Below the pieces are notes generated by a model that did not search any database, was not told where the DNA came from, and saw nothing but the letters and a program-made list of their open reading frames with translations. The position numbers were made by a program, and so were the translations under genes. Positions 1 to 30,364 of a stretch of DNA of 64,000 bases are shown piece after piece; within the stretch, counting starts at the first letter, position 1; every line of letters starts with the position of its first letter. Origin of the DNA: Aestuariivita boseongensis. GTDB lineage: Bacteria > Pseudomonadota > Alphaproteobacteria > Rhodobacterales > Rhodobacteraceae. Where the stretch lies: contig NZ_JXYH01000005.1 of the NCBI RefSeq assembly GCF_001262635.1, forward strand, positions 62,070-126,069, in the 5' to 3' direction.

Positions 1-2787
1 GGCCCCGACCCGGTGCAGGGCACCTATGGCACCTTCACGATCTCGGCCTCGGGGGAATGGACCTACACACTCACGGAAAGCCTTGAAGGTCTGAATGCGC
101 CCGAGGCCGAAGGTGGTGCTTCGGCGATCGAGACCTTCACGGTTCAGGTCTCTGACGGGAATGGCGGGGTCGACCAGCAGGTGATCACGATCAACCTGGT
201 CGGCGACAATGACCTGCCTGTCTTTGACACCGAACTCAGCACCGATACCGGTGAGGTGACGGAAGATTCCGATGACATCGCCGCGACCGGCACGATGATC
301 GCCACCGATGTCGACAGCGCCGATCCGGTCTGGAGCAACCTGACCGGTGGCGACACGATCCAGGGTACGTATGGCGCGCTGCAGATCCAGGCAAACGGCT
401 CGTGGACCTATGAGCTGGATCCCGAACTGTCCGACAGTCTGGGCGATAGCGATGTGGAGACCGACAGCTTTACCGTGAGAGCCAGCGATGGCGACGGCGG
501 AGAAATCCAGCGCACCATCCAGATCACCGTGAATGGATCGAATGATGCGCCGGTCATCACCTCCGGACCCGAGGCCGCGACGGGTTCGGTCACCGAAGAT
601 GATCAGGTGAACACAGCTTCAGGCCAGCTGACGGCCTTTGATGCCGAAAACAGTCCGCTCACCTGGGGCATGGTGGGCAGCATCGAAGGCACCTATGGCA
701 CGCTGACCATCGACGATGACGGCAACTGGCTATACACGCTTGACAACATTCAGGCCAACAGCCTCGGCGAGGGTGACAGTGACACCGATACCTTCACCGT
801 CTTCGCCTCGGATGGCAGCCTGCAATCGGGCAACCAGCAGATCACGATTACGGTGAACGGTGCCAATGACGCACCCGAACTGCCCGAAGACAACGTCTTT
901 GAAACCACACAGGCCACGGCGGTTACAGATACCATTCTGGCCACTGACCCCGATGGCGACACGCTGACCTATACCCTGGTCACCGGCGAAGGGTTCGACG
1001 CGGAAAACGGCACCGTGTCGCTGACCAGCGGCGGGTCTTTCACCTATACCCCCAATGAAGGCTTTGTGGGCTTCGACAGCTTCACCTACGAGGTCAGCGA
1101 CGGGCTGGGCGGCGTGACCCAGGGCGAGGTGATCATCGCGGTTGAAACGGGTGAGGGCGGCGACAACAGCGTTGATGTGATCGTCAATTTCGATCCGGCA
1201 ACGGATGCTCCGGCCGGTAGTGTCGTACTGGATGCCAATGAGGTCACGTCATCCGAGGTCAATCTAATCTTTGCGCTGGATGGGTCCGGCAGTATCTCCA
1301 ATGACGACTGGAATGCGATGATCACGTCGATCGATGGGGCGCTTGACACACTGCAGACCCGGTTTGAAGGTTCAGAATTAACGGTTACCGTTGGATTTAC
1401 CGTCTTTTCCAGCGATGCGACTGAGGTTGTGTCTTTTGACCTGTTCAACGCCACCGGCACTGCCGAAGATCCTCGCGACGGCTGGGCGGAGGAGCTGGAA
1501 GCTCTGCGCGACGAACAGCCCAGCAGCCTGACCAACTGGGGCGCCGCACTGGACAGCACCGATACCTATCTTGACGGAACGGATCCCAACGCGCAGAACT
1601 TCCTGTTCTTCATCACCGATGGTGTGCCGTCGGGCAATGACTCGGTCTGGCAGGTCGAGCGAGATGAGCTTCTGGCCAACCACAACATCGACATCGAAGC
1701 CTTTGGGCTTGGTCCTGCCTTTGATAGCACCAGCGGCAATCCCTCTGCCAATGCGGTCGAAAGCCTGAACGGGCTGGACAGCGACGGTGCCTATACCGCG
1801 CTCTCAGGCCCTGAGGATTTGGAGCAGGCGTTGATCACGACCCCAGCTTTCAACCCAACGCTTGTGTCTTTGTCGGTGTCCTTGTCCGTCGAAGGTGGAC
1901 CCTCGACCGTGGTTGCCACAGAAGACACCCGGGCCCTGGCCAAGGAGGGAATTGACTACGAATTGGCGCTGGCCGAGATCGAAGACCTCTCTGACGCTCT
2001 GGGAGTGGAAAACCGGTTTTCGGTTACAGCCACTTATGACCTGGATGGTGATGGCGTCGCGGATCTGACCGTTTTCGCTACAGAAGTCTTTGGTAAGTCT
2101 GAAACGGAGGTGACGATCCCCAATGCCACCGACAGCCCCGCGTCCGAGCTGACGGGCAGCGATCTTCTGTTCGGGAGCGATCTTGCCGATGATATCTCAA
2201 GTGGGTCGGGCAATGATCTGGTGATGGGCTATGACGGTGCGGACAGCCTGAATGCCGGCACCGGGATCGATACAGTGCTTGCAGGGGCAGGCGACGATCT
2301 GCTGACTATGGAAGATGCTGGAGTGACCCGTCTGCCCGAAGACGGCGGCGACGGGGATTTGATGGATGGTGGCACGGGCCAGGATACGCTGGTCTTCGAT
2401 TTCACCAACGACATTCTGACCAACCTGCTGGACGATGTGACGATCCGCGACATCGAAACACTGGATATGGATAACGGCTTGCAGAACTCCATGATGCTGA
2501 CGCTAAGCGATGTAGTCGATTTGTCGACGGACTCGAACGCGCTGCTTGATGGGCAGGGCGTGGGAGCCGTGTCGGACAGCGCATTGATCCTGGGTGACAC
2601 TCAGGATGTCCTGTTCCTGGAAGACGGCGCAGACGGAAATTGGGTGCTGGCTTCACAGGATGAAGATATCGGTGGAGGTCAGTTGGTGGATATATGGCAA
2701 TACCAAAGCAACACTGATCCGGTCGGCGTATTTTCGGCAACATTGGGTGTTGATGCAGAAATCGAAGTGAACCCGCCCGTCGCTTAA
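1..2787 (+). CDS. Large secreted adhesin, 5'-truncated at the window edge. Repeated VCBS/cadherin-like Ig domains are followed by a vWA domain and RTX (hemolysin-type Ca-binding) repeats, making it a likely T1SS substrate.
   Basis: Open frame from base 1. ~100-aa repeats (TFTVxxSDGxGG...ITINLVGxNDxPV) recur four times. vWA metal-site motif LIFALDGSGSIS....FITDG is present. C-terminal GSGNDLVMGYDGADSLNAGTGIDTVLAGAGDDLL glycine/aspartate nonapeptide repeats are followed by an acidic C-terminal tail. Confidence 0.8.
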   Translation, partial: GPDPVQGTYGTFTISASGEWTYTLTESLEGLNAPEAEGGASAIETFTVQVSDGNGGVDQQVITINLVGDNDLPVFDTELSTDTGEVTEDSDDIAATGTMIATDVDSADPVWSNLTGGDTIQGTYGALQIQANGSWTYELDPELSDSLGDSDVETDSFTVRASDGDGGEIQRTIQITVNGSNDAPVITSGPEAATGSVTEDDQVNTASGQLTAFDAENSPLTWGMVGSIEGTYGTLTIDDDGNWLYTLDNIQANSLGEGDSDTDTFTVFASDGSLQSGNQQITITVNGANDAPELPEDNVFETTQATAVTDTILATDPDGDTLTYTLVTGEGFDAENGTVSLTSGGSFTYTPNEGFVGFDSFTYEVSDGLGGVTQGEVIIAVETGEGGDNSVDVIVNFDPATDAPAGSVVLDANEVTSSEVNLIFALDGSGSISNDDWNAMITSIDGALDTLQTRFEGSELTVTVGFTVFSSDATEVVSFDLFNATGTAEDPRDGWAEELEALRDEQPSSLTNWGAALDSTDTYLDGTDPNAQNFLFFITDGVPSGNDSVWQVERDELLANHNIDIEAFGLGPAFDSTSGNPSANAVESLNGLDSDGAYTALSGPEDLEQALITTPAFNPTLVSLSVSLSVEGGPSTVVATEDTRALAKEGIDYELALAEIEDLSDALGVENRFSVTATYDLDGDGVADLTVFATEVFGKSETEVTIPNATDSPASELTGSDLLFGSDLADDISSGSGNDLVMGYDGADSLNAGTGIDTVLAGAGDDLLTMEDAGVTRLPEDGGDGDLMDGGTGQDTLVFDFTNDILTNLLDDVTIRDIETLDMDNGLQNSMMLTLSDVVDLSTDSNALLDGQGVGAVSDSALILGDTQDVLFLEDGADGNWVLASQDEDIGGGQLVDIWQYQSNTDPVGVFSATLGVDAEIEVNPPVA

Positions 2788-2802: not shown

Positions 2803-3195
2803 CTATCTTGCCGCAAAGACCAGCCATGCCCAGATCATGGCAACATAAGTCATCTGGTGTAGGAACTGGTCAAAGCCTGCGGCACGCCAGAAACCTGCGT
2901 CGGCGGGCCCATGGCCTTTGGTGGCGGTATAGGCTGCTTTGGCCCAGTCGATGTGGAAGTGCACCACCCATTCTAGCAAGATCAGCACCAGGATCACTCC
3001 TATCGGCGCGCCAACAATCAGAAGGCAGATCAGCGATCCGACCGCGTGCACCAACGCGTGCTGCGCACGACCCATATGAAAATAGGTCCCGCGCCCTTCC
3101 AGCATCCTAGAAGTCTGGAGGAAGTAATCCGAAAACATATGCTTGATTTGAAGCAGGGAAAGCAGGATCAGAATCTGTAACGCCAGCTCGGTCAC
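2803..3195 (-). CDS. Small polytopic inner-membrane protein of unknown function
   Basis: 130-aa ORF with 3-4 hydrophobic helices. GC3-rich codon usage typical of the genome. No recognisable catalytic motif. Confidence 0.45.
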   Translation of the reverse strand: MTELALQILILLSLLQIKHMFSDYFLQTSRMLEGRGTYFHMGRAQHALVHAVGSLICLLIVGAPIGVILVLILLEWVVHFHIDWAKAAYTATKGHGPADAGFWRAAGFDQFLHQMTYVAMIWAWLVFAAR

Positions 3196-3425
3196 GTGGT
3201 TAACATCCTTTACGACACGCCGGCCGATACGTTGAGTGTAATGCCGAATATTTGGGCAAAAGCAATTGATTGCAAGAGCCTAAGACGTTTACCTTGGGTC
3301 CCATGTGCTTGAAGCTGGAATAAGCAACACGCGGCAACCGCTTTGCGGCAGATTGGAACAAGGCCATAGAACGCACACTTTTCAAATTCATTTGGAAATA
3401 CTCCAAGCGCGACCAACTGGTTCTT

Positions 3426-6368
3426 TTGGCCGTGACAACCTGCTTGTTCCCGCTTCTGTATCTGACGCTGGAATTGCCCAAGCGGATCATCAACGACGCC
3501 ATAGGTGCGGGATCCTCCCCGGTGCAGTTCATGGGCTATTCCGTCGAACAGGTGGTCTTGCTCAGTATCCTCTGCGGGGCCTTTCTGCTGTCGGTTCTGG
3601 CCCACGGCCTTCTGAAGATGCGCATCAACACGATGAAGGGCATTCTGTCGGAACGCATGCTGCGGCGGTTCCGCTATACACTGATTGCGCGCGTCACGCG
3701 GTTCCCGCAGCCCTATTTCGAACGCACCAGCCAGGGCGAGCTTGTCTCGATGATCACGTCCGAGGCCGAACCGATGGGCGGTCTGATGGGCGACGCGATC
3801 AGCCAGCCGGTGCTGCAGGCGGGCCAGATGCTGACGATCCTCAGCTTCCTGTTCCTGCAATCCTTCTGGTTCGGGCTGGCCGCCATTGCGCTGATCCCGC
3901 TGCAGGCCTGGCTGATCCCGATGCTGCAGCGCCAGATCAACCAGCTGAACAAAAAGCGCATTGTGCAGGTCCGCGCCTTTGCCGCCGAAATCGGGGAAAC
4001 GGCCCAGGGCGCCTCGACCCTGCGGGCCAATGGCGGCTGGCGTTTCCGGCTGTCGATGATCACCGACCGGCTGGCGCGGCTGTTCACGATCCGGTTCGAG
4101 ATCTACCAGAAGAAATTCTTCATGAAGTTCCTCAACAACTTCATCAACCAGCTCACGCCCTTCTTCTTTTATCTGGTGGGCGGTCTTCTGGTGATCCAGG
4201 GAGAGATTACCGTGGGCGCGCTGGTCGCGGCGCTGGCGGCCTACAAGGATATCGCCAGCCCCTGGAAAGAGCTTCTGGCCTATTACAACCAGGTGCAGGA
4301 CATGTCCCTGCGCTGGGAGATCATCACCGAACGCTTTGCCCCCGAAGGCATGACGGACGAGGCGCTGTTCACCGGCCAGCCCGAGGGCGAACCCGATCTG
4401 AAAGGCCCGATCACGCTGAAACATGTCAATGTGCGCGATGCCGATGGCAACAGCGTGCTGGAAGACCTCAATGTGACCCTGAACGAGGGCGCGATGATCG
4501 GCGTCACGGCCCCCAGCGAAGAGGACCGCCGCGCCTTTTCAGAAGTGCTGGTGCGCGAGGTGCAGCCTGCGGGCGGCAGCGTGACCATTGCCGACCAGCC
4601 GCTGGCGGGGCTGCATCAGGCAGTTGTGGCGCGCCAGATCGGCCATGCCTCGGCCCGGCCCGTTCTGTTTCAGGGCACTTTCCTGGAAAACGTGCTGATG
4701 CCGCTGAAGTACCAGCCCCTGTCGAAAGAGGGGATGGAGGCCGCGATCCTCGATGCCGAACGTTCGGGAAACAGCGGCGATCCGCTTCTGGCAGATTGGC
4801 TGGACCCGTCGCTTGCCGGGCTTGAAGACGAAGCCGCGCTGCGTGGCTGGATGCTGAAACTGGTCGACGCACTTGGCAGCGCGCCCACCTTCTTCCGCAG
4901 GGGCCTTGATATGCGCGCCGACGCGGTTCAGACGCCCGAGTTGACCCAGGCCATCATCGACGCCCGCACCAGCCTGAAGGAAGAGCTGCGCGCCACCGGG
5001 CTTGACCGCGCGGTGCATTGGCTGAACCCCGTGGCCTATAACCCCGCGCTGCCCGTGGGCGACAACCTGCTTTATGCCTCCCCGCTCAAACCCATCACGC
5101 AAGAGGCGCTGGCGCAGGAAACCGAATTCCTTGCCTTCCTGCGCGAACAGAAGATCGACGCGGGCCTGATCGCGCTCAGCCGCGATGTGATCGACATGCT
5201 GCGCCAGATCTTCGGCATGGACGGCACCGACCACCCGCTGTTTCACAAGCTGGGGCTTGAGGAAGGCACCTATGCCAAGGCGGCCGAATTGGTCAGCGCC
5301 CATGACGACAGCGGCGAACTCAGCGACGATGATCTGGCGCTTCTGATGACCATTCCCTTTGGCATTTCCGCCGAACAGATCGGCCCGGCCTTCCCCGAAG
5401 CCATGCAGGAGCAGATCCTGGAACTGCGCGCCACCCATGGCCAGGACATGCGCGAAAAGCTGAAAAGCCTTTACGTGCCGCTTTCCAGCAGCGCCTGGGC
5501 TCCGGGGATGAGCGTTCTGGAAAACGCGCTTTACGGGAAAGTGTCGGATACCGCCGGCGCCCGCGCGGACGAGGTGCGCCGCAAAGCCGCCGAATATCTG
5601 GAACGCGCCGGTCTGCGCGATCTGGTGGTGGCGCTGGTCTTTGACTGCCCGGTTCCTCTGGGCGGTGCCAACATGCCCTCGATTCTGGCCGAACCGCTGG
5701 CGGTGATGCGCGCCGCGATCAAGCGACCCAATGTGCTGGTTCTGGACAACGTGCTGGCCAGCCGCGAACGCGACGAGCGGCAGGAAGCCTATGAGAAACT
5801 GCACGAGCTTCTGCCCGGCACCACCATGGTTGTTCTGTCCGACAGCTTTCCCGCCGGTGCCGTCTTTGAACAGCAGCTTGACCTGCAACAGGGCCGGCTT
5901 GTCGCCCATGGCGAAACCGTGGCCGCCGAACAGGATGGCGCGGCCAGCGCGGACCTCACGCGCAAGCTGCGCGCGCTGGAACAGACGCATCTCTTTTCCG
6001 GTCTGGGCCGCCGCCAGCTGCGCCTGCTGGCCTTCGGCGCGCGCTGGTATGACGCGCAGGCGGGCGAATATGTCTTCTACAAGGGCGACCCGCCGATTGA
6101 CGGGGCCTATATGGTCATCGAAGGCGAAGCGGGGCTTTATCTTCCCAAGGACGGCGAAGACGATCAGCTGATCACCACCGTGGGTCCCGGCACGCTGGTG
6201 GGTGAACTGGGACTGATCCGCAACGTGCCGCGCGCGCTGGACATGAAGGCCGAAACCGATTTGAGATGCCTGCGCATCGGGGCCGAGGAATTCCTCGCCG
6301 TTGTGGAAAATGACGCCCAGACGGCCTTCAAGCTGTTGCAGGTCGTGGCGGGCTATGTCTCGAACTGA
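3426..6368 (+). CDS. ABC-exporter-like protein with a transmembrane domain, degenerate nucleotide-binding domain and C-terminal cyclic-nucleotide-binding (cNMP) domain. The true start is probably upstream of the TTG at 3426.
   Basis: N-terminal type-I ABC exporter TMD (6 predicted TM helices). The NBD-like region lacks Walker A (GAMIGVTAPSEEDRRA instead of GxxGxGKST). Walker B is VLVLDN (catalytic Glu replaced by Asn), the signature is degenerate (PLGGANMPS), and there is a large insertion inside the NBD. C-terminal ~130 aa match the cNMP-binding fold (FSGLGRRQLRLLAFGARWYDAQAGEYVFYKGDPPIDGAYMVIEGEAGLY...GELGLI). Confidence 0.8.
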   Translation: MAVTTCLFPLLYLTLELPKRIINDAIGAGSSPVQFMGYSVEQVVLLSILCGAFLLSVLAHGLLKMRINTMKGILSERMLRRFRYTLIARVTRFPQPYFERTSQGELVSMITSEAEPMGGLMGDAISQPVLQAGQMLTILSFLFLQSFWFGLAAIALIPLQAWLIPMLQRQINQLNKKRIVQVRAFAAEIGETAQGASTLRANGGWRFRLSMITDRLARLFTIRFEIYQKKFFMKFLNNFINQLTPFFFYLVGGLLVIQGEITVGALVAALAAYKDIASPWKELLAYYNQVQDMSLRWEIITERFAPEGMTDEALFTGQPEGEPDLKGPITLKHVNVRDADGNSVLEDLNVTLNEGAMIGVTAPSEEDRRAFSEVLVREVQPAGGSVTIADQPLAGLHQAVVARQIGHASARPVLFQGTFLENVLMPLKYQPLSKEGMEAAILDAERSGNSGDPLLADWLDPSLAGLEDEAALRGWMLKLVDALGSAPTFFRRGLDMRADAVQTPELTQAIIDARTSLKEELRATGLDRAVHWLNPVAYNPALPVGDNLLYASPLKPITQEALAQETEFLAFLREQKIDAGLIALSRDVIDMLRQIFGMDGTDHPLFHKLGLEEGTYAKAAELVSAHDDSGELSDDDLALLMTIPFGISAEQIGPAFPEAMQEQILELRATHGQDMREKLKSLYVPLSSSAWAPGMSVLENALYGKVSDTAGARADEVRRKAAEYLERAGLRDLVVALVFDCPVPLGGANMPSILAEPLAVMRAAIKRPNVLVLDNVLASRERDERQEAYEKLHELLPGTTMVVLSDSFPAGAVFEQQLDLQQGRLVAHGETVAAEQDGAASADLTRKLRALEQTHLFSGLGRRQLRLLAFGARWYDAQAGEYVFYKGDPPIDGAYMVIEGEAGLYLPKDGEDDQLITTVGPGTLVGELGLIRNVPRALDMKAETDLRCLRIGAEEFLAVVENDAQTAFKLLQVVAGYVSN

Positions 6369-6389
6369 TCACTGCGCAAGAGGACAGGA

Positions 6390-7238
6390 ATGAAGCTGAA
6401 GAGAGTTGCCAGGGGCGACGCCATCCGCAACGCTGCCGAGGATCCGTCAGGGACCTGGCGCGACGTGACCGACGTGACCGGCGATCTCAGCGCCAAATGT
6501 CTGGCCAACGACGGGTTGGCCGCGCTGCATGGGGCCGACCTGACCGCGCTGCCGGAACTGGGCGCCTATGACCGGCTGCTGCCTTGTGTGGGCAGCGTGG
6601 GCAAATTCATGTGCATCGGCCTGAATTACTCTGACCACGCGGAAGAGGCGGGCATGGCCATCCCCGACCATCCGATCCTGTTTCTGAAAGCCAATTCCGC
6701 CATTGCGGGGGCGCAGGACGATCTGCTGATGCCGCGCGGATCCAAAGCGCTGGATTGGGAGGTCGAACTGGGCGTGATCATCGGCAAGCCTGCGAAATAC
6801 GTGGACGAAGCGCGGGCACTGGACCACGTGGCGGGCTATTGCGTGGTCAATGACGTGTCCGAACGCGATTTTCAGCTGCACCTGACCGGCCAGTGGACCA
6901 AGGGCAAATCCTGCGACACGTTCGGCCCCATCGGCCCGTGGTTCGTGACCGCCGACGCGGTGCCCGATCCGCAGGCCCTGTCGCTCTGGGCCGAGGTGAA
7001 CGGGCAGCGGATGCAGGCGGGCCACAGCTCGACCATGATCTTTACCGTGGCCCAGATCATCGCGCATCTGTCGCAACTGATGACGCTGCATCCCGGCGAT
7101 GTGATCGCCACGGGTACACCTCCGGGTGTGGGCATGGGGATGAAACCGCCGCGATACCTCAAGCCGGGCGATGAGGTGAAGGCCGGGATCGAAGGTCTGG
7201 GCGAACAGGTCCAGCGCGTTATCGAAGATCAGAGCTGA
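6390..7238 (+). CDS. Fumarylacetoacetate hydrolase (FAH) family hydratase/isomerase
   Basis: GKFMCIGLNYSDHAEE...LDWEVELGVIIGK...GDVIATGTPPGVG motifs typical of the FAH/HpcE family. RBS GAGGACAGGA lies upstream of the ATG. Confidence 0.85.
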   Translation: MKLKRVARGDAIRNAAEDPSGTWRDVTDVTGDLSAKCLANDGLAALHGADLTALPELGAYDRLLPCVGSVGKFMCIGLNYSDHAEEAGMAIPDHPILFLKANSAIAGAQDDLLMPRGSKALDWEVELGVIIGKPAKYVDEARALDHVAGYCVVNDVSERDFQLHLTGQWTKGKSCDTFGPIGPWFVTADAVPDPQALSLWAEVNGQRMQAGHSSTMIFTVAQIIAHLSQLMTLHPGDVIATGTPPGVGMGMKPPRYLKPGDEVKAGIEGLGEQVQRVIEDQS

Positions 7239-7250
7239 TCGGGGCAGGGC

Positions 7251-8642
7251 ATGTTGGGTCTCAGACGGGTTCTATTGGCAGCAGCGCTGGGCGTGTCGGC
7301 CTGCAGCGGTGTCACCACCATTCACAACCCTGCGGCAGATACCGTCTGGCCCCCTCAGGAAAAGTCCGCGCCTTATAGTCAGGGCACGAAAACCACCGCG
7401 CGCAAGAATATCGCGATCTTCTTTGATGGCACGGGCAATGATTTCAACGCGGCGACCAATGTGGGCCGTCTGTATCAGTTGACGATCAACTAGAACCGCG
7501 ACGACATCGCGGCCTTTTACTCCTCGGGCGTGGGGGTTGATCGCGAGGTGCCTGTCGGGCTCGCCACTGGCCTTGGCTTTCGCGAGGATGTGCAGAATGC
7601 CTATCGCTTTCTGTCCGAAAACTATGCGGGCAGCCATGACCAGATCCATCTTTACGGCTATTCGTGCGGGGTGTTTGCCGTCCGTGCTCTGGGGGGGGGC
7701 GTGCATACGGTGGGGCTTGTGGATCTTCCCGATGACTATGACGCCGATCGCCGCGATTAGATCATTCACGAGCTCTTCACGGCCTATAAATTCGCCCACA
7801 ACAGGGCCGTGCCGCAAGGCTGCCCGGTCAGATGGGGCCAGCCGCAGGAAGCCATCGACCGCCGTCGCTGCGCAACGGGACGCGTGCTGGCCAAACACGG
7901 GCTGAGCGTGTCACGTTACCATGACGAGGTGCGCTTTGCCATGGTCGGCCTGTGGGACACGGTCGAAACGCTGGGATGGACCAATGGCCGTGACGATATC
8001 GACGATGTGAACTGGCGCTATGCCGATCAGATCTGCAACATGGACCGGGTCGCCCATGCCGCGTCGCTGCATGACAATCGCGCGGGGCCCTATACGCCCA
8101 TCCTGATGACCCGCCGCCGTATTGTAGACGATTGCGACCATCCCGATAGGGTGCTTTTCAAACGTGTGAACGAAGTCTGGTTTGCAGGCGATCACGGCCA
8201 GATCGGCGGGACCGAACCTTTGGGATATCTCTCGGGCGTGTCGCTGAACTGGATGCTGGATCAGGTGCGGCAGGTTCGCGTGAACGGACCGATCTTTCCC
8301 AAACATGCTGCCGTCCATGAAGACCGCCTCGATGTGGTCAAGGATGCCGAGCGCCAACGCCTGGGCTTCCGAGTGCTGTTTGACCGGCAGATGCGCGGTA
8401 TCCGCTGTTACTTCAAACCGGGCAATGATCGGCTATGGCAAAACGGATCCGCCGTCAGCAGGATCAAACTCCATGTGTCGGTGAAAGAACGTCTCGCGGC
8501 CGATGTCAGGCAGGTCCGGCGCGACCGGACCGGTGAGCCCCTGAAAGCGCTTTCCATCGAAGGGCAGGAGGCCCAGGTCGCCCGGATCAAAGCGTCAGAT
8601 GCCGCCTGTAACCCCGTTAAGCTGGTCTACGTCGGCGGCTGA
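7251..8642 (+). pseudogene. DUF2235 / Tle1-like alpha/beta-hydrolase (phospholipase-type) lipoprotein gene interrupted by two in-frame TAG codons
   Basis: Signal peptide with lipobox LGVSAC. IAIFFDGTGN, the GxSxG nucleophile (YGYSCG) and GLWDTV motifs of the DUF2235/Tle1 catalytic domain all lie in one reading frame. That frame is broken only by TAG at 7491-7493 and TAG at 7758-7760. Similarity continues across both stops. A G9 homopolymer lies at 7691-7699. Confidence 0.7.
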
Positions 8643-8986
8643 TCCGCTGCATGCGCATCGTCTGCGCCGCAATAGATCTTGTGCAGCATCCCGATCACCT
8701 GCGTGGTGGTCTCGTTGGCCAGCTGGTAAAACACTGTCCTTCCAGATCGCCTTGCGCTGACAACCCCATCTTCGCGCAGCCGCGCCAGCAATTGGGATAC
8801 GGCGGCCTGGCGCATGTTCAGCAGATCCTCAAGCTCTCCCACGGATCGTTCGCCGGTGGCCAGATGGCACAGGATCATCAGACGGCCCTCATGGGCAAGG
8901 GTCTTGAGGAAGGCCGCGGCCTCGGCCGCGCGTGCCGCCATGTCCGAAGGCGCATCTGACGGCAATAGGGTATCAACTGTGGTCAT
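8627..8986 (-). CDS. ArsR/SmtB-family transcriptional regulator
   Basis: Winged-HTH signature LAHEGRLMILCHLATGERSVGELEDLL...VSQLLARLREDGVV. Its 3' end overlaps the convergent DUF2235 gene by 16 bp. Confidence 0.85.
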   Translation of the reverse strand: MTTVDTLLPSDAPSDMAARAAEAAAFLKTLAHEGRLMILCHLATGERSVGELEDLLNMRQAAVSQLLARLREDGVVSARRSGRTVFYQLANETTTQVIGMLHKIYCGADDAHAADQPPT

Positions 8987-9033
8987 ATCTGCCGCAAGTG
9001 TCGTAGTAATTGCCCGCCACTATGCCCGCTTCG

Positions 9034-10287
9034 TCAATCCGTGTCACCTGTTCCGTCAGGCTCGGACGCAGGGGCCCCACCTTCGAAGGCGTTGCCATTG
9101 ACGTAATCGCAGGGCGCTTCCTGCATTTCCAGATGCAGGCCCGTGCCGGTATAGGGATGGGCGCGGGCCAGATCTTCGTCCACCTCGATGCCCAGACCGG
9201 GGGCGGTGGGGGGCGTTATGAACCCGTCCTCCACCCGGATTGCGCCCTTGATCAGACGATCATGGAAATCGGTCTCAATCGTTTCGCACATCAGGATATT
9301 GGGGATCGACGCGGCCAGGTGAATATTCGCCGCCCATTCTACCGGCCCTGCATAGAGATGCGGCGCCATCTGCGCGTTATAGACCTCGGCGATGGCGGCC
9401 ACTTTCTTCATCTCCCAGATACCGCCCGCGCGCCCCAGCGCTGGCTGTAGGATCGTCGCCGCGCCCGCACGCAGGATCTGGGCGAATTCGGCTTTGGTCG
9501 TAATCCGCTCTCCGGTGGCCACCGGGATGCGCACGGCGCGCGCGACCTTGGCCATCTCCTCCACCGCGTCGGGGGGAATGGGTTCTTCGAACCACAGCGG
9601 CGAATAGGGCTCCAGCGCCTGGCCCAGACGGATCGCGCCTGCGGTGGTGAACTGGCCATGGGTGCCGAACAGCAAATCGGCCTTGTCGCCCACAGCCTCC
9701 CGGATCGCTTTGCAGAAGGCTACCGATTGGCTGATATCCGACATCGCCGGCATATGCCCACCGCGCAGCGTGTAGGGGCCTGCGGGGTCGAATTTCACCG
9801 CCGTGAAACCGCGCGCCACGCAATCCGCCGCAGCCTCGGCCGCCATCTCGGGCGAGGTCCAGAAGTCTTTCATCCGGTGATGCGCCAAAGGGTAAAGATA
9901 GGTATAGGCGCGGATCCGGTCATTCATCTTCCCGCCGATCAGCGCATGAACGGGGCGGTCCCGATCCTTGCCCAGAATGTCCCAGCAGGCGATCTCAAGC
10001 CCGGAAAACGCGCCCATCACCGTCAGGTCGGGCCGTTGCGTAAACCCGCTGGAATAGGCGCGGCGGAACATCAGTTCGATGTTTTCGGGGTTCTCGCCCG
10101 CCATATGCCGTTCGAAAACATCGCGGATCACATGGGTCATCGCCTCGGGCCCGATGGACGAGGCATAGCATTCCCCCCAGCCCGTAACCCCGGTATCGGT
10201 GGAGAGCTTCACCAGGATCCAATACCGCCCACCCCAGCCAGGAGCAGGGGGCGCGGTCACGATCAAGTCCAGATCGGTCAGTTTCAT
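9034..10287 (-). CDS. Mandelate racemase / muconate-lactonizing enzyme family (enolase superfamily) dehydratase or cycloisomerase
   Basis: N-terminal capping domain (ILVKLSTDTGVTGWGE). Barrel-domain metal-ligand context (WFEEP, FGTHGQ). GGGAGG RBS before the ATG on the minus strand. Confidence 0.85.
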   Translation of the reverse strand: MKLTDLDLIVTAPPAPGWGGRYWILVKLSTDTGVTGWGECYASSIGPEAMTHVIRDVFERHMAGENPENIELMFRRAYSSGFTQRPDLTVMGAFSGLEIACWDILGKDRDRPVHALIGGKMNDRIRAYTYLYPLAHHRMKDFWTSPEMAAEAAADCVARGFTAVKFDPAGPYTLRGGHMPAMSDISQSVAFCKAIREAVGDKADLLFGTHGQFTTAGAIRLGQALEPYSPLWFEEPIPPDAVEEMAKVARAVRIPVATGERITTKAEFAQILRAGAATILQPALGRAGGIWEMKKVAAIAEVYNAQMAPHLYAGPVEWAANIHLAASIPNILMCETIETDFHDRLIKGAIRVEDGFITPPTAPGLGIEVDEDLARAHPYTGTGLHLEMQEAPCDYVNGNAFEGGAPASEPDGTGDTD

Positions 10288-11676: not shown

Positions 11677-12765
11677 CTACCGGTCAAACACGATCACGTT
11701 GCGCTTGGCCGACCCGGTCTTGGTATCGGCAATCGCTTCGTTGATCTGCTCAAGCGACCAGCGGTTCGAAATCAGCTCATCCAGCTTCAACCGCCCTTGC
11801 TTGTAGAGATCCACCATCCACGGGATATCCCGCTGGATCACCACATCGCCCATCTTCGATCCGATCATGCCCTGACCGGTAAAAGACAGGATCACCGGCT
11901 CATAGCTCGACATGGCACCGGAATGGGGCATGCCCACCATGATCACCTTGCCGCCCCGCGCCAGATAAAGCGGCGCCTGGTCATAGGCCGGGATCGCACC
12001 CACGGTGACGATCACCGCATCCGCCCCGCGCCCGATGGCCCGCTGCGCAGCTTTCCATGGCGCTTTGTGGGTGGCCAGTACGCCATCGGTGGCCCCAAAG
12101 CTTTTGGCGATCTCCAGCTTTTCTTCGGTCATGTCCACCGCCACGATCCGCCGGGCGCCGGCAATCCGCGCGCCCTGAATGGCGTTCAGGCCCACGCCGC
12201 CTGCGCCGATCACGACCACGTCCTGACCTGCGCGAATGCCCGCTGCGTTCACCACGGCGCCCACGCCGGTGATCACGCCGCAGGCGATCAGGCTGGCGGC
12301 TTCCTTCGGGATGTCATCGCCGATGGCCACGACCTGGCTTTGATCCACGACGACCTTTTCGGCAAATGCGCCCGAGGCCATGGCCTGATGCAGCTTGCCG
12401 CCCTCTGCCGTCTTGATCGGCCCGTGATCGCCATCATAGGGCGTTTCGCAAATCGTGGGCTTTCCGCCCGCGCAGGAGGGACAGGTGCCACAGGCGCGGA
12501 TCAGGGTCACGACGACGCTGTCGCCCACCTTCACCGTGCCCACACCATCCCCCACCGCGGTTACGACACCGGCGGCTTCGTGCCCGTAGACCGCGGGCAG
12601 GGATCCGCCCCATGCCCCGTCGGCATAAGAGATATCCGAATGGCAGATCGCGACGGCGTCCAACGTAACCTCAACCTCTCCCATACCGGGCGGCGCGATC
12701 TGGATCTCTTCGATGCTCAGGGGTTTGCCGAATTCATGGCAGACGGCGGCTTTGATCGTTTGCAT
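11677..12765 (-). CDS. Zinc-dependent alcohol dehydrogenase (MDR superfamily)
   Basis: GHEAAGVV catalytic-zinc motif. Structural-zinc Cys cluster CGTCPSC. Rossmann motif GAGGVG. GGGAGG RBS before MQTIKAAV. Confidence 0.85.
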   Translation of the reverse strand: MQTIKAAVCHEFGKPLSIEEIQIAPPGMGEVEVTLDAVAICHSDISYADGAWGGSLPAVYGHEAAGVVTAVGDGVGTVKVGDSVVVTLIRACGTCPSCAGGKPTICETPYDGDHGPIKTAEGGKLHQAMASGAFAEKVVVDQSQVVAIGDDIPKEAASLIACGVITGVGAVVNAAGIRAGQDVVVIGAGGVGLNAIQGARIAGARRIVAVDMTEEKLEIAKSFGATDGVLATHKAPWKAAQRAIGRGADAVIVTVGAIPAYDQAPLYLARGGKVIMVGMPHSGAMSSYEPVILSFTGQGMIGSKMGDVVIQRDIPWMVDLYKQGRLKLDELISNRWSLEQINEAIADTKTGSAKRNVIVFDR

Positions 12766-12850
12766 GGAACCTCCCACGTCCCTCGTTTTGTCAGACCGTG
12801 ACCTGAGTTGGCCCTTGCCGCAAGCGGGAAACCGTCAGGGGAACGCGCAA

Positions 12851-22663: not shown

Positions 22664-23242
22664 ATGGTTTCAGTGCGTGAGTTTGGCTTCAGAAAACTGA
22701 TGACCTTTGTGGCCGCTGCAGGCATCGCATGTGCGTCTGTCGTGGTGTCACCGCTGCCCGCATCGGCGCAGAACACGGCCGTGGGCGAGCGTTACATACC
22801 CACGATCTGGGTCGATCCGGATGGCTGCGAGCATTGGGTGATGGATGACGGTGTCGAGGGCTATATGACGCCTCATGTGAACCGCCAGGGCATTCCGGTC
22901 TGCCGCCGGGGCGATGTCTGCGGGGTGATGAATTCCGATCAGTTTTTCGCCACCGACAGCTATCGCATCAGTGCCGCGGGCAAACAGCGCCTGACCGAGT
23001 TCTTCACTCAATCGACCGCCACGGCTTTCATCATCACGGGTCATACCGACAGCCGCGCCTCGGACGCCTATAACATGCGCCTGAGCTATAACCGCGCCAA
23101 TGCCGTGGCCCGTGTCGCGGCCGCCGCCGGTGCGCGTATCTCGGATGTACGCGGGTATGGCGAACGGATGCCTGCGGCGTCGAACGCCACGGCAGCGGGC
23201 ATGGCCAAGAACCGCCGCGTTGAAATCATCTGCATTCGCTAA
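22664..23242 (+). CDS. OmpA-family (peptidoglycan-binding) protein with a novel N-terminal Cys-containing domain
   Basis: OmpA C-terminal motifs ITGHTDSRASDAYNMRLSYNRANAV...NRRVEI. Signal peptide. N-terminal IWVDPDGCEHWVMDDGVEGY....PVC module. Confidence 0.8.
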   Translation: MVSVREFGFRKLMTFVAAAGIACASVVVSPLPASAQNTAVGERYIPTIWVDPDGCEHWVMDDGVEGYMTPHVNRQGIPVCRRGDVCGVMNSDQFFATDSYRISAAGKQRLTEFFTQSTATAFIITGHTDSRASDAYNMRLSYNRANAVARVAAAAGARISDVRGYGERMPAASNATAAGMAKNRRVEIICIR

Positions 23243-23254
23243 GGGACCCGCATC

Positions 23255-23551
23255 ATGAAAATTGCAAAAACAGCCATTCTGTTGCTGGTCGCGGGCACCG
23301 TCGCGGCTTGTGACGACAAGATCGACAAGACTGTGGACCGGGGGTTTGACAGCAAGGACCTGTCCACGCTGAAGGCCGGTATCTGGGTCGATCCCAACGG
23401 CTGCGACCACTGGATCATCGACGATGGCGTCGAAGGATATCTGTCGCAACGGCTGGACAAGTACGGCAAGCCGGTCTGTTCCGGCGTCGCGCCGCCCAAC
23501 ACGGCGACTGGGCCGTTCAAGCAAGGTTCGGAATTCCCGGATCCGATTTGA
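23255..23551 (+). CDS. Small lipoprotein that is a paralogue of the N-terminal domain of the upstream OmpA-family protein
   Basis: Lipobox LVAGTVAAC. Motif IWVDPNGCDHWIIDDGVEGY...PVCSG shared with the adjacent gene. Confidence 0.6.
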   Translation: MKIAKTAILLLVAGTVAACDDKIDKTVDRGFDSKDLSTLKAGIWVDPNGCDHWIIDDGVEGYLSQRLDKYGKPVCSGVAPPNTATGPFKQGSEFPDPI

Positions 23552-23641: not shown

Positions 23642-24760
23642 GTGCCGACACCATTTTTGTTTCAACCCCGTGAATTTTATCCCGCGCCGCTTGCCAGATT
23701 GCGCAGGCTTTGGCACCCTGAGATCAGAGCAGATAAGGAGACCAGATTGGCCATCAGCGCCCTGACCCCCGATCAAACCCTTGCAGCCGATCAAGAGCTG
23801 CTGATCGAATTTCCAGACAATCTTCTCATGGCCGCCCTCGTGGGCGAACATTCCCGAAACCTCGTTCCCATCGAACAGCAGCTTCAGGTGCAGATCCTCC
23901 ACAAGGGCAACCAACTTGCGATCCTGGGGGAAGAAGACGCGCAGAAACGCGCCGCCGAAGTGCTGCACGCGCTTTACACGCGGCTGGAGCAGGGCCGCGC
24001 GGTGGAACAGGGCGATATCGACCGTGAATTGCGCATGGGCGGGTCCGAGGACGTGACAGGCGACCGCGCCGGCGACCAGCTTGAGATGTTCCGCGGCGGC
24101 AAGGTCGAGATCAAGACGCGCAAGAAACTGGTCGAACCGCGCACGGACGCGCAGAAGGCCTATGTGACGTCCCTGTTCGAGCATGAACTGGCCTTCGGCA
24201 TCGGCCCGGCCGGCACCGGCAAGACCTATCTGGCGGTGGCGGTGGGCGTGAACATGTTCATCAACGGCCATGTGGACCGGATCATCCTGTCGCGCCCGGC
24301 GGTGGAGGCCGGTGAAAAGCTGGGCTATCTTCCGGGCGACATGAAGGACAAGGTCGATCCCTACATGCAGCCGCTTTACGATGCGCTGAACGATTTCCTG
24401 CCAGGCAAGCAACTGGCCAAACTGATCGAGGAAAAGCGCATCGAGATCGCGCCACTGGCCTTCATGCGCGGCCGCACGCTGGCCAATGCCTTCGTGGTGC
24501 TGGACGAGGCGCAGAATGCCACGACCATGCAGATGAAGATGTTCCTGACCCGCCTGGGTGAGGGAAGCCGCATGGTCATCACCGGCGATCGCAGCCAGGT
24601 CGACCTGCCGCGCGGGGTGCCTTCGGGGCTTGCGGATGCCGAGCGGCTGTTGAAGTCGATCCCCAAGATCAGCTTCAACTATTTCACCGCCAAGGATGTG
24701 GTCCGCCACCCGCTGGTCGCCGCCATTATCGAGGCCTATGACGCCGATACCGCCGGGTAG
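23642..24760 (+). CDS. ybeZ: PhoH-like ATPase (YbeZ). The start may instead be the TTG near 23750.
   Basis: Walker A GPAGTGKTYLAV. PhoH signature LSRPAVEAGEKLGYLPGD...VVLDEAQN. Ends with TAG. Confidence 0.85.
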   Translation: MPTPFLFQPREFYPAPLARLRRLWHPEIRADKETRLAISALTPDQTLAADQELLIEFPDNLLMAALVGEHSRNLVPIEQQLQVQILHKGNQLAILGEEDAQKRAAEVLHALYTRLEQGRAVEQGDIDRELRMGGSEDVTGDRAGDQLEMFRGGKVEIKTRKKLVEPRTDAQKAYVTSLFEHELAFGIGPAGTGKTYLAVAVGVNMFINGHVDRIILSRPAVEAGEKLGYLPGDMKDKVDPYMQPLYDALNDFLPGKQLAKLIEEKRIEIAPLAFMRGRTLANAFVVLDEAQNATTMQMKMFLTRLGEGSRMVITGDRSQVDLPRGVPSGLADAERLLKSIPKISFNYFTAKDVVRHPLVAAIIEAYDADTAG

Positions 24761-27800: not shown

Positions 27801-27851
27801 TCCAGAATGAGATTGACCCCGCGCCTGCGCCCGCGTAAGCGCTGTCGTCAT

Positions 27852-27900
27852 GGCTCTCGCAACGGCTTCCTGGCGCGGGAGTGGACACATTAATGGAGCA
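27852..27900 (+). promoter_or_regulatory. Probable SAM/SAH riboswitch (Rhodobacterales metK leader). Pseudoknot would sequester the ribosome-binding site.
   Basis: ~49-nt element ending 5 nt before the metK ATG. Stem around CGCAACGGCUUCCUGGCGCG, with loop CUUCC complementary to the downstream GGAG SD inside ...UGGAGCA. The motif class is known to be restricted to Rhodobacterales metK 5'UTRs. Assignment from memory of the consensus. Confidence 0.45.
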
Positions 27901-29734: not shown

Positions 29735-30364
29735 ATGATTTTCTACGATTGCGCCACCGCCCCCAGCCCGCGCCGCGCGCGCATGCTGATTGCCGAAAAA
29801 GGGCTTGAGGTCGAAACCCGCCAGGTCGATCTGCGGTCAGGTGAACATCTGCAGCCCGCCTTTCTTGAGATCAACCCGCGCGGCACGGTGCCGGTCCTGG
29901 TCACAGATGAGGGCACGATTCTGACCGAAAATCTGGGCATCGCGGCCTATCTCGAGGCCGCCTTTCCGGACACCCCCATGACCGGCAGCACGCCCGATGA
30001 GACCGGTCTGGTCTGGAGCTGGACGATGATCTGCGAACAGCAGGGCGGCATGGCCGTGGCCGAGGCGCTGCGCAATGCCTCGCCCGCGATGAAGGACCGC
30101 GCCTTGCCGGGCCCTGTGCCTTATGCGCAGATCCCCGAACTGGCCGAACGCGGCCGGGCGCGGGTGGCGGCATTCTTTGACCTGCTGGAAGACCGGCTGA
30201 CCGACCGCGAATGGCTGGCCACGGATACTTTCACGCTGGCCGATCTGACCGGGTTCGTCTTTGTCGATTTCGCCCGGATCGTGAAGATGCAGATCCCCGA
30301 CACCCATGAGGCGGCCCAGGCCTGGTTCAACCGCATCGCGCATCGCCCCAGCGCGCAGGTATAG
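29735..30364 (+). CDS. Glutathione S-transferase
   Basis: N-terminal thioredoxin-like GST domain (MIFYD...SPRRARMLIAEKGLEVE...GTVPVL), then a C-terminal helical domain. Confidence 0.8.
   Translation: MIFYDCATAPSPRRARMLIAEKGLEVETRQVDLRSGEHLQPAFLEINPRGTVPVLVTDEGTILTENLGIAAYLEAAFPDTPMTGSTPDETGLVWSWTMICEQQGGMAVAEALRNASPAMKDRALPGPVPYAQIPELAERGRARVAAFFDLLEDRLTDREWLATDTFTLADLTGFVFVDFARIVKMQIPDTHEAAQAWFNRIAHRPSAQV

What the first reader, a model, noticed from the sequence alone, without database searches (positions are those of the whole stretch)
7251..8642. Tle1/DUF2235-type lipoprotein phospholipase gene interrupted by two in-frame amber (TAG) codons
Catalytic motifs (FFDGTGN, GYSCG nucleophile elbow, GLWDTV) and the lipoprotein signal are all in one frame. 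The frame is broken only by TAG at 7491-7493 and TAG at 7758-7760, and similarity is uninterrupted on both sides. Both interruptions being TAG is notable. They could be two independent CAG-to-TAG (Gln-to-stop) nonsense mutations in a decaying toxin-like gene, or a gene kept OFF unless amber suppression occurs. TAG also functions as a genuine stop nearby, since ybeZ ends in TAG, so global recoding is unlikely. DUF2235 enzymes are typically T6SS lipase effectors, and here the protein is a lipoprotein with no T6SS genes nearby.
Basis: seen in the sequence. Interest (0 to 1): 0.55.

Follow-up and report, generated by a model that had tools for sequence, protein, structure and literature searches.

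The report
Recently broken lipase-like lipoprotein gene
This is an ordinary pseudogene: an accessory lipase-like lipoprotein gene of a marine Roseobacter-group bacterium was knocked out by two nonsense mutations, and nothing suggests the stop codons are read through or recoded.

Summary
Window 7251-8642 (+) is one 463-codon frame with a lipoprotein signal and a full-length DUF2235/Tle1-like catalytic domain (Pfam PF09994, E=5.8e-41). It is broken only by TAG at 7491-7493 and TAG at 7758-7760.

The best explanation is a recent nonsense-mutation pseudogene of an accessory gene.
- All 16 close homologues are uninterrupted (445-485 aa, 40-67% identical), and three of them sit in the same gene neighbourhood.
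- TAG1 replaces a Gln conserved in all 16 (CAA/CAG in the three nearest), so one C-to-T change suffices. TAG2 falls in a variable column.
- TAG is a working stop for at least seven domain-complete genes in the window, and no other coding region carries an in-frame stop.
- Two nonsense hits both giving TAG has a probability of about 0.23-0.32 from this gene's codon content, so the coincidence is not notable.
- Six lineage-specific substitutions cluster in the helix right after the catalytic Ser. One is R139C, at an Arg invariant in 38 homologues.
- Ruegeria sp. TM1040 keeps the same neighbourhood but has no such gene.

Amber suppression cannot be excluded, because only one tRNA gene lies in the window. 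Nothing supports it. Interest is low.

The parts
7251..8642 (+). Whole pseudogene: DUF2235/Tle1-like lipoprotein alpha/beta-hydrolase, 463 codons plus TGA, two internal TAG
7251..7304 (+). Lipoprotein signal peptide with lipobox V-S-A-C (Cys18)
   Evidence: Read from the translation. The lipobox Cys column is shared by 14 of the 16 aligned homologues, and a lipobox pattern matches 33 of 44 homologues.
7419..7439 (+). Motif 1, FFDGTGN (oxyanion-hole block of the DUF2235 domain)
   Evidence: aligns with FFDGTxN of solved Tle1 chains 9j3f and 6sjl
7491..7493 (+). First in-frame TAG (codon 81). It replaces a Gln present in all 16 homologues; the three nearest orthologues have CAA/CAG.
7656..7670 (+). 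Nucleophile elbow G-Y-S-C-G. Ser138 is kept, but the family-invariant Arg139 is Cys (CGC to TGC).
7665..7700 (+). Cluster of six lineage-specific substitutions (R139C, A141V, S143A, A144V, A148G, F150G) in the helix after the nucleophile. It includes a G9 run at 7691-7699.
   Evidence: permutation p about 0.02; helix 139-154 in the model of orthologue P0001
7758..7760 (+). Second in-frame TAG (codon 170), in a variable column inside helix 165-180 of the catalytic domain
7947..7964 (+). Motif 3, GLWDTV, with the catalytic Asp236. It lies downstream of both stops.
8187..8210 (+). Motif 4, GDHGQIGG, with the catalytic His315. It lies downstream of both stops.
6390..7238 (+). Upstream neighbour, FAA-hydrolase family gene. 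It ends 12 nt before the pseudogene's ATG (probable co-transcription) and is syntenic in L001, L002, L078 and Ruegeria sp. TM1040.
8627..8986 (-). Convergent downstream neighbour, ArsR-family regulator. It ends in TAG at 8627-8629 and overlaps the pseudogene's 3' end by 16 nt. Syntenic in L001, L002 and TM1040; the L078 contig ends before a match could be found.

Best explanation
This is a recently inactivated accessory gene. The ancestral gene encoded an exported lipoprotein with a DUF2235/Tle1-type alpha/beta-hydrolase domain (Ser138-Asp236-His315), presumably a lipase or phospholipase acting in the cell envelope and independent of any T6SS. In this lineage two independent single-base changes created TAG stops at codons 81 and 170. 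Translation should therefore end after 80 residues, before the nucleophile Ser, the Asp and the His, so no active enzyme is made. The helix after the nucleophile has also collected damaging substitutions. Shown here: the stops, the intact orthologues, normal use of TAG as a stop, and the absence of the gene at the same locus in a relative. Inferred: the enzyme activity, the order of the mutations, and the absence of read-through.
For: Anatomy and homology:
- One frame has two TAGs, and the complete Pfam PF09994 profile runs across them.
- All 16 close homologues (445-485 aa) are uninterrupted.
- Three of them are syntenic orthologues in the order ABC-cNMP / FAH / Tle1-like, followed by ArsR and MR_MLE on the opposite strand in L001 and L002 (the L078 contig ends there).

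Origin of the stops:
- TAG1 sits at a Gln present in all 16 homologues, encoded CAA/CAG in the nearest orthologues, so one C-to-T change explains it. TAG2 is one step from several of the codons seen in its column.
- About 48-56% of single-base routes to a stop in this gene give TAG, so P(both TAG) is about 0.23-0.32.

TAG is an ordinary stop here:
- It ends domain-complete Zn-ADH, FMN-dehydrogenase, GST, ArsR, MFS and ankyrin genes, and the PhoH-like gene.
- A codon-usage scan of the window picked up three stops flanked by same-frame coding sequence: TAG1 and two others. The two others proved to be boundaries between separate genes.

Signs of decay:
- The window sequence differs at 8 residue columns that at least 15 of 16 homologues conserve, against 3-4 for its three nearest orthologues.
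- Six lineage-specific changes fall within the 13 residues after Ser138. R139C hits an Arg invariant in 38 homologues, and A141 and A144 are at least 90% conserved.

The gene is dispensable:
- The Ruegeria sp. TM1040 megaplasmid has the same block, with 37 bp between FAH and ArsR and no Tle1-like gene.
- In Litoreibacter and Roseovarius the homologue sits in a different neighbourhood.

Timing and position:
- Identity by codon position to L001 (0.72/0.83/0.42) matches that between intact orthologues, and Tajima relative-rate tests are not significant. The gene was therefore under constraint until recently.
- About 3% of random substitutions in this gene are nonsense, so a second stop is expected after roughly 34 neutral substitutions. 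That roughly fits the modest excess of changes at conserved sites.
- In the AlphaFold model of orthologue P0001 (pLDDT 88.9, best PDB match Tle1 4o5p), both stops lie inside the catalytic domain and upstream of the Asp and the His.
Against: - There are no frameshifts or indels in 1.39 kb, and the catalytic Ser, Asp and His codons and the lipobox are all intact. The decay is slight, and an expressed read-through product is not excluded.
- Both TAGs are followed by A, a context reported to favour suppression in E. coli (my own recollection, not tested here).
- TAG1 sits at a conserved Gln, which a Gln-inserting suppressor would restore exactly.
- No conspecific or near-identical sequence was available. 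The best relative is 67% identical, so neither the timing nor the reality of the two bases could be checked independently.
- The excess of changes at conserved sites and their clustering are statistically modest. One intact orthologue, L078, also shows a cluster of unique changes.
Confidence: 0.85

Rival explanations
1. Sequencing or assembly error: the organism's gene is intact, and the two TAGs are miscalled bases.
For: The source genome and any close relative are missing from every collection searched, so the two bases cannot be cross-checked. The gene also holds a G9 homopolymer at 7691-7699, the kind of sequence that attracts errors.
Against: Both lesions are substitutions, not the indels typical of consensus errors. 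The G9 run is in frame. No other coding region in the 64 kb window has an in-frame stop. The same gene also carries extra non-conservative substitutions at invariant positions, which fits real decay and not two isolated miscalls.
Confidence: 0.06
2. Conditional expression by amber suppression or read-through: the gene is kept OFF, and full-length lipase is made only when a suppressor tRNA (for example a Gln-inserting CUA tRNA) or leaky termination reads both TAGs.
For: TAG1 replaces a conserved Gln, and Gln occurs in the TAG2 column in two homologues. Both stops are followed by A. The rest of the frame, the catalytic triad and the lipobox are intact.
Against: TAG ends at least seven ordinary genes in the window, and nothing looks like read-through extension. 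The only tRNA gene in the window is Ser-GCT. Two stops in series would cut the yield to the product of two suppression efficiencies. No homologue has a stop at either site. The invariant Arg139 and the nucleophile helix are damaged, which is hard to square with selection for a working product. Two TAGs are expected by chance about 25% of the time.
Confidence: 0.04
3. Split gene: the three pieces (aa 1-80, 82-169, 171-463) are translated separately and still work, alone or assembled.
For: In-frame GTG codons follow each stop, at 7530 and 7809.
Against: Neither GTG has a recognisable Shine-Dalgarno sequence upstream (read). Only the first piece would have the export signal, while Ser138 lies in piece 2 and Asp236 and His315 in piece 3. 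No homologue is split. The breaks fall just after a helix and inside another helix of the single catalytic domain.
Confidence: 0.02
4. Genetic-code recoding of TAG, for example to pyrrolysine or to a sense codon throughout the genome.
For: Only the fact that both interruptions are TAG.
Against: TAG is a normal terminator of domain-complete genes. About a fifth of the long ORFs in a rough ORF set end in TAG. No tRNA-Pyl lies in the window. The homologues have ordinary residues at these sites, Gln at one and variable residues at the other.
Confidence: 0.01

Closest known systems
Tle1 T6SS phospholipase effectors (P. aeruginosa PA3290, PDB 4o5p; enteroaggregative E. coli Tle1, PDB 6sjl) / Pfam PF09994 DUF2235
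   Same: Same catalytic domain family: the full-length Pfam match and the four shared motif blocks FFDGTxN, G-x-S-R-G-A, G-L-x-D-T-V and G-x-H-x-x-x-G-G. The model of the intact orthologue finds 4o5p as its best PDB match (E about 1e-5).
   Different: It has a Sec/lipoprotein signal, which T6SS effectors lack. No T6SS or immunity genes were seen at the locus or in the syntenic loci. Sequence similarity to solved Tle1 chains is limited to the motifs (E=2.5e-4). It is 460-485 aa against 560-780 aa, with a different C-terminal part. In this window it is also interrupted and has Cys in place of the invariant Arg.
Uncharacterised DUF2235 lipoproteins of Rhodobacteraceae and other phyla (e.g. Sulfitobacter sp. 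HNIBRBA3233 and Roseovarius sp. A21 'DUF2235 domain-containing protein')
   Same: Direct homologues, 40-67% identical over the full length among the closest 16, with the same lipobox, motifs and conserved C-terminal Cys. The three nearest share the gene neighbourhood.
   Different: All of them are intact. The window copy has two TAGs and a damaged nucleophile helix.
Ordinary bacterial pseudogenes made by nonsense mutation in accessory genes
   Same: In-frame stops in an otherwise alignable gene, intact orthologues, absence of the gene at the same locus in a relative (TM1040), and extra substitutions at conserved sites.
   Different: Nothing substantive. It is simply at an early stage, with no frameshifts or deletions yet.
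Amber alleles carried together with suppressor tRNAs in laboratory E. coli K-12 (e.g. rpoS(Am) with supE; my own recollection, not checked here)
   Same: TAG at a Gln codon that a Gln-inserting suppressor would restore.
   Different: No suppressor tRNA is known or visible here. There are two stops in series, and TAG ends many normal genes in the window.

Membership tests
Pfam PF09994 (DUF2235 / T6SS_Tle1-like catalytic domain) | Profile match above the gathering score over the whole domain | tested here: met
   141.1 bits against a cut-off of 27, E=5.8e-41, aa 52-338 = profile 1-287/287
Pfam PF09994 (DUF2235 / T6SS_Tle1-like catalytic domain) | Catalytic Ser-Asp-His in the motifs GxSxG, GLxDTV and GxHxxxGG | tested here: met
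   Ser138, Asp236 and His315 are present and align with the same motifs in the homologues and in solved Tle1 chains
Pfam PF09994 (DUF2235 / T6SS_Tle1-like catalytic domain) | Invariant Arg after the nucleophile (G-x-S-R-G-A) | tested here: not met
   The window has Cys139 (TGC). Arg is invariant in 38 homologues and present in 9j3f and 6sjl
Pfam PF09994 (DUF2235 / T6SS_Tle1-like catalytic domain) | Uninterrupted open reading frame, i.e. a functional member | tested here: not met
   TAG at codons 81 and 170
T6SS Tle1 effector | Genetic linkage to T6SS genes (vgrG, hcp, PAAR) or a Tli1-type immunity gene | tested here: not met
   The neighbours are an ABC-cNMP protein, FAA hydrolase, ArsR, MR_MLE, a Rieske oxygenase, Zn-ADH, MFS and a lyase. 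The neighbours are the same in L001, L002 and L078. Only part of the 64 kb window was annotated.
T6SS Tle1 effector | No Sec or lipoprotein signal (delivery through the T6SS) | tested here: not met
   N-terminal signal with lipobox VSAC; a lipobox pattern matches 33 of 44 homologues
Nonsense-mutation pseudogene | In-frame stops inside a region homologous to intact orthologues that have sense codons there | tested here: met
   All 16 homologues are uninterrupted. They have Gln at site 1 and various residues at site 2
Nonsense-mutation pseudogene | The stop codon involved is a real terminator in the same genome | tested here: met
   TAG ends Zn-ADH, FMN_dh, GST, ArsR, MFS, ankyrin and PhoH-like genes at the expected domain ends
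Nonsense-mutation pseudogene | Signs of relaxed constraint | tested here: inconclusive
   8 deviations at conserved columns against 3-4 in the nearest orthologues, and a cluster of 6 in 13 residues (p about 0.02). The relative-rate tests are not significant, and dS is saturated at this distance.
Nonsense-mutation pseudogene | No full-length product made (no suppressor tRNA, no read-through) | not testable with these tools
   Only 64 kb of the genome is available, with one tRNA gene, Ser-GCT
TAG recoding (pyrrolysine or reassigned amber) | TAG rare or absent as a terminator; in-frame TAG in several genes; tRNA-Pyl and pyl genes | tested here: not met
   TAG ends about a fifth of the long ORFs in a rough ORF set and seven verified genes. 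No other gene has an in-frame stop. No tRNA-Pyl lies in the window.

The most novel reading that the evidence does not exclude
The gene is kept in a cryptic OFF state and yields full-length envelope lipase only when both amber codons are read, by a Gln-inserting suppressor tRNA or stress-induced read-through elsewhere in the genome. That would be a natural amber-gated switch for a potentially self-damaging phospholipase.
Probability: 0.03. Interest if true: 0.6.

Novelty: already known. Interest (0 to 1): 0.1.

Why it matters
It matters little beyond annotation. The locus should be labelled a pseudogene of a DUF2235 lipoprotein, not three small ORFs or a T6SS effector. Two side points have modest value. 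First, a lipoprotein, T6SS-independent branch of the Tle1/DUF2235 lipase family is widespread in several phyla, and the one literature search made here found no paper on it. Second, this locus shows that branch as an accessory gene: intact in three related metagenomic contigs, broken here, and absent from the same site in Ruegeria sp. TM1040. If the amber codons were read through under some condition it would be an interesting natural switch, but nothing found here points that way.

Tried and rejected
- **GC3 screen for in-frame stops.** It was too noisy at 62% GC, because antisense frames also have high GC3. I replaced it with a codon-usage, six-frame comparison.
- **Greedy longest-ORF gene set.** It included antisense shadow ORFs: four long ORFs had no Pfam hit and near-equal-length ORFs lie on the opposite strand. 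I used it only for rough stop-codon counts.
- **NCBIfam scan of the joined protein.** No family matched.
- **Search for the source genome or a near-identical relative.** None was found. I tried an exact look-up of the neighbouring FAH protein, the protein database (best 67%), genome contigs (best 50%), metagenome contigs (best 53%) and plasmids by megablast (only 74-80% matches to neighbouring genes). The ancestral codon at TAG2 and the age of the mutations therefore could not be pinned down.
- **dN/dS.** I did not attempt it formally, because third-position identity to the nearest orthologue is about 0.42, which is saturated.
- **Mutational signature.** C-to-T is the commonest lineage-specific change (17 of 71), but the intact orthologues show similar spectra, so this is not informative.
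- **Promoter and terminator scan of 3000-9200.** Counts equalled those in shuffled sequence.
- **Rfam.** Nothing lies in or near the gene.
- **A-to-I editing by TadA.** Considered, because it would turn UAG into a Trp-like UIG. Rejected because neither site has the UACG loop motif (both read TAGA), and neither column holds Trp in any homologue.
- **Literature search for DUF2235 plus lipoprotein.** It returned only T6SS papers.

Full report
**1. The observation**

Window 7251-8642 (+) reads as one frame of 463 codons ending in TGA. It has exactly two internal stops, TAG at 7491-7493 (codon 81) and TAG at 7758-7760 (codon 170). The N-terminus MLGLRRVLLAAALGVSAC carries a lipobox, V-S-A-C. The motifs FFDGTGN (7419-7439), GYSCG (7656-7670), GLWDTV (7947-7964) and GDHGQIGG (8187-8210) are all in this frame.

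With the stops masked, Pfam PF09994 (T6SS_Tle1-like_cat, formerly DUF2235) matches as a single stretch. It covers aa 52-338 = profile 1-287 of 287, with E=5.8e-41 and 141 bits against a cut-off of 27. NCBIfam has no model for it.

**2. Relatives**

A search of the large protein database returned 44 homologues. The top 16 are full-length, uninterrupted proteins of 445-485 aa, 40-67% identical over 86-100% of the query.

The three nearest (P0001, P0002, P0003) lie on metagenomic contigs with the same gene order as the window. That order is a large ABC-membrane/cNMP-binding protein, an FAA-hydrolase family protein and the Tle1-like gene. In L001 and L002 a convergent ArsR-family regulator and an MR/MLE enolase-superfamily gene follow; the L078 contig ends before a match to them could be found. 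These three are therefore positional orthologues.

In the 17-sequence alignment similarity continues on both sides of each TAG. The first TAG falls in a column that is Gln in all 16 homologues. The three nearest orthologues encode it as CAA, CAG and CAA, so a single C-to-T change from CAG explains it. The second TAG falls in a variable column (R, A, E, K, Q, D, G; codons AGA, GCA and GAA in the nearest three). Its ancestral codon cannot be recovered, although several of the residues there are one step from TAG. No homologue has a stop at either site.

**3. Is TAG a stop in this genome?**

Yes. TAG ends a Zn-dependent alcohol dehydrogenase (11677-12777, -), an FMN-dependent dehydrogenase (54750-55916, -; profile 2-348 of 350), a glutathione S-transferase (29735-30364), the adjacent ArsR regulator (8627-8986, -), an MFS transporter and an ankyrin-repeat protein. 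All have domain matches that finish close to the C-terminus. The PhoH/ybeZ-like gene 23642-24760 also ends in TAG.

A six-frame codon-usage comparison, trained on Pfam-confirmed genes, looked for stops flanked on both sides by sequence that scores best in the same frame. It gave three candidates: TAG1 of this gene, TAA at 23240 and TAG at 54750. The last two are boundaries between separate genes. The downstream ORF in each case has its own ATG, and at 23255 it has its own lipoprotein signal. TAG2 did not pass the stringent thresholds of this scan, but it is established by homology.

So there is no general read-through or recoding in the window. ARAGORN finds a single tRNA gene in the window, Ser-GCT.

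**4. Is 'both TAG' notable?**

No. I counted every single-base route from this gene's sense codons to a stop. TAG receives 48-56% of them, depending on the transition bias, because CAG, GAG, AAG, TCG, TTG and TGG are common in a GC-rich gene. Given two nonsense hits, both are TAG with probability 0.23-0.32. The three orthologues give similar fractions.

**5. Signs of decay beyond the stops**

In 121 columns at least 15 of the 16 homologues agree. The window sequence deviates at nine of them, the first TAG and eight substitutions. Its three nearest orthologues deviate at 3-4 each in the same leave-one-out test.

Six lineage-specific changes (R139C, A141V, S143A, A144V, A148G, F150G) fall within the 13 residues directly after the nucleophile Ser138. 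In that stretch the three nearest orthologues are identical to one another. A permutation test for such clustering gives p about 0.02, although one intact orthologue (L078) also shows a cluster elsewhere. In a broader 38-sequence alignment spanning several phyla, S138-R139-G140 is invariant and A141 and A144 are at least 90% conserved. The same GFSRGA block is present in solved Tle1 chains. The stretch also contains a G9 run (7691-7699) that reads L-G-G-G where the relatives have L-A-G-F.

An AlphaFold model of the intact orthologue P0001 (mean pLDDT 88.9, pTM 0.91) puts residues 139-154 in the helix that follows the nucleophile elbow. It puts the two stop positions just after helix 70-79 and inside helix 165-180. 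Both stops lie upstream of Asp236 and His315. The best PDB match of the model is P. aeruginosa Tle1 (4o5p, E about 1e-5, probability 1.00), followed by monoacylglycerol lipases and esterases.

**6. How old is the damage?**

Identity by codon position between the window gene and L001 is 0.72/0.83/0.42. This is the same pattern as between intact orthologues. Tajima relative-rate tests show only a small, non-significant excess of changes on the window branch (42-43 against 34-37). The gene therefore evolved under purifying selection for nearly all of its history.

About 3% of random substitutions in this gene would be nonsense. If the first stop was the inactivating event, a second is expected after roughly 34 further neutral substitutions, with wide scatter. 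That is of the same order as the modest excess of changes at conserved sites. No frameshift or deletion has yet occurred. The picture is an early-stage pseudogene.

**7. The gene is dispensable**

A megablast of the neighbourhood against plasmids hit Roseobacter-group replicons (Ruegeria, Tritonibacter, Leisingera). This places the window in that group, possibly on a megaplasmid or chromid.

The Ruegeria sp. TM1040 megaplasmid has the same block: DUF3307, ABC-cNMP, FAH, ArsR, MR/MLE and Zn-ADH. There the FAH gene ends 37 bp from the ArsR gene, and there is no Tle1-like gene or remnant. In Litoreibacter and Roseovarius the homologue lies in a different neighbourhood.

The Tle1-like gene also diverges faster than its neighbours, 62-67% aa identity against 69-93% for the flanking genes in the same contigs. 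One MAG copy (L006) appears frameshifted. All of this fits an accessory gene that is gained, moved and lost.

**8. What the ancestral gene was**

It was an exported lipoprotein with a DUF2235 alpha/beta-hydrolase domain and a Ser-Asp-His triad. A lipase or phospholipase A-type activity is inferred from its relatives. It was not a T6SS effector, for two reasons:
- It has a lipoprotein signal, and a simple lipobox pattern matches 33 of the 44 homologues.
- No T6SS gene is linked to it in the window neighbourhood or in the orthologous contigs.

It starts 12 nt after the FAH gene and is probably co-transcribed with it. A literature search for DUF2235 plus lipoprotein returned only T6SS papers, so this lipoprotein branch appears uncharacterised.

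**9. Rivals**

- **Sequencing error** cannot be excluded without reads. It is unlikely, because both lesions are substitutions, the rest of the window is clean, and the gene shows other decay.
- **Amber suppression** cannot be excluded without the whole genome. The points in its favour are a conserved Gln at site 1, an A after both TAGs and an otherwise intact frame. They are weak and are expected under the pseudogene reading too. Against it stand two stops in series, normal use of TAG as a terminator and the damaged nucleophile motif.
- **A functional split gene** is implausible, because the export signal and the triad residues would end up on different pieces and no relative is split.
- **TAG recoding** is refuted within the window.

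**10. Verdict**

This is an ordinary, recent nonsense pseudogene of an accessory DUF2235 lipoprotein gene. Interest is low.

Noticed in passing
window 61571-64000: GC content drops from about 0.61 to about 0.50 immediately after tRNA-Ser(GCT) (61571-61660). The ORF 62313-63503 (+) in the low-GC stretch is an ankyrin-repeat protein (Pfam Ank_2 E=3e-54) with GC3 of only 0.45. This looks like a horizontally acquired island inserted at a tRNA gene.
   Followed up: partly
window 27851-27900 (+): SAM/SAH riboswitch aptamer (Rfam RF01727, 57 bits against a gathering score of 40), the class typical of Rhodobacterales. The downstream gene was not examined.
   Followed up: no
window 7691-7699: A run of nine G inside the pseudogene, read as L-G-G-G where all close relatives have L-A-G-F. 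It is in frame here, but such a run is prone to slippage or sequencing error.
   Followed up: partly
L006 6001-7303 (MAG Rhodobacteraceae bacterium CSBr16_51, SKIF01000040.1): The homologue of the same lipoprotein family is matched in two different reading frames (6001-6882 and 6878-7303). This is either a frameshifted copy or an assembly error in the MAG.
   Followed up: no
L086 8895-8932 (Ruegeria sp. TM1040 megaplasmid NC_008043.1): The syntenic block DUF3307 / ABC-cNMP / FAH / ArsR / MR_MLE / Zn-ADH is conserved, but the Tle1-like gene is absent. Only 37 bp separate FAH and ArsR.
   Followed up: yes
P0001-P0044 (homologues from Proteobacteria, Bacteroidota and others): A lipobox pattern matches 33 of the 44 DUF2235 homologues found. 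A T6SS-independent, lipoprotein branch of the Tle1-like lipase family is therefore widespread, and it was not described in the papers retrieved.
   Followed up: partly
window 22664-23551 (+): Two adjacent genes in the same frame, both with an N-terminal signal peptide (the second with a clear lipobox). They share an N-terminal motif (WVDP[DN]GC[ED]HW[VI][MI]DDGVEGY) and are separated by TAA plus 12 nt. They look like a tandem duplication, and the first has an OmpA-like C-terminus by eye.
   Followed up: no
window 13-2787 (+): A large ORF with Big_9, cadherin-like and VWA domains, so a putative adhesin, lies upstream of the locus.
   Followed up: no
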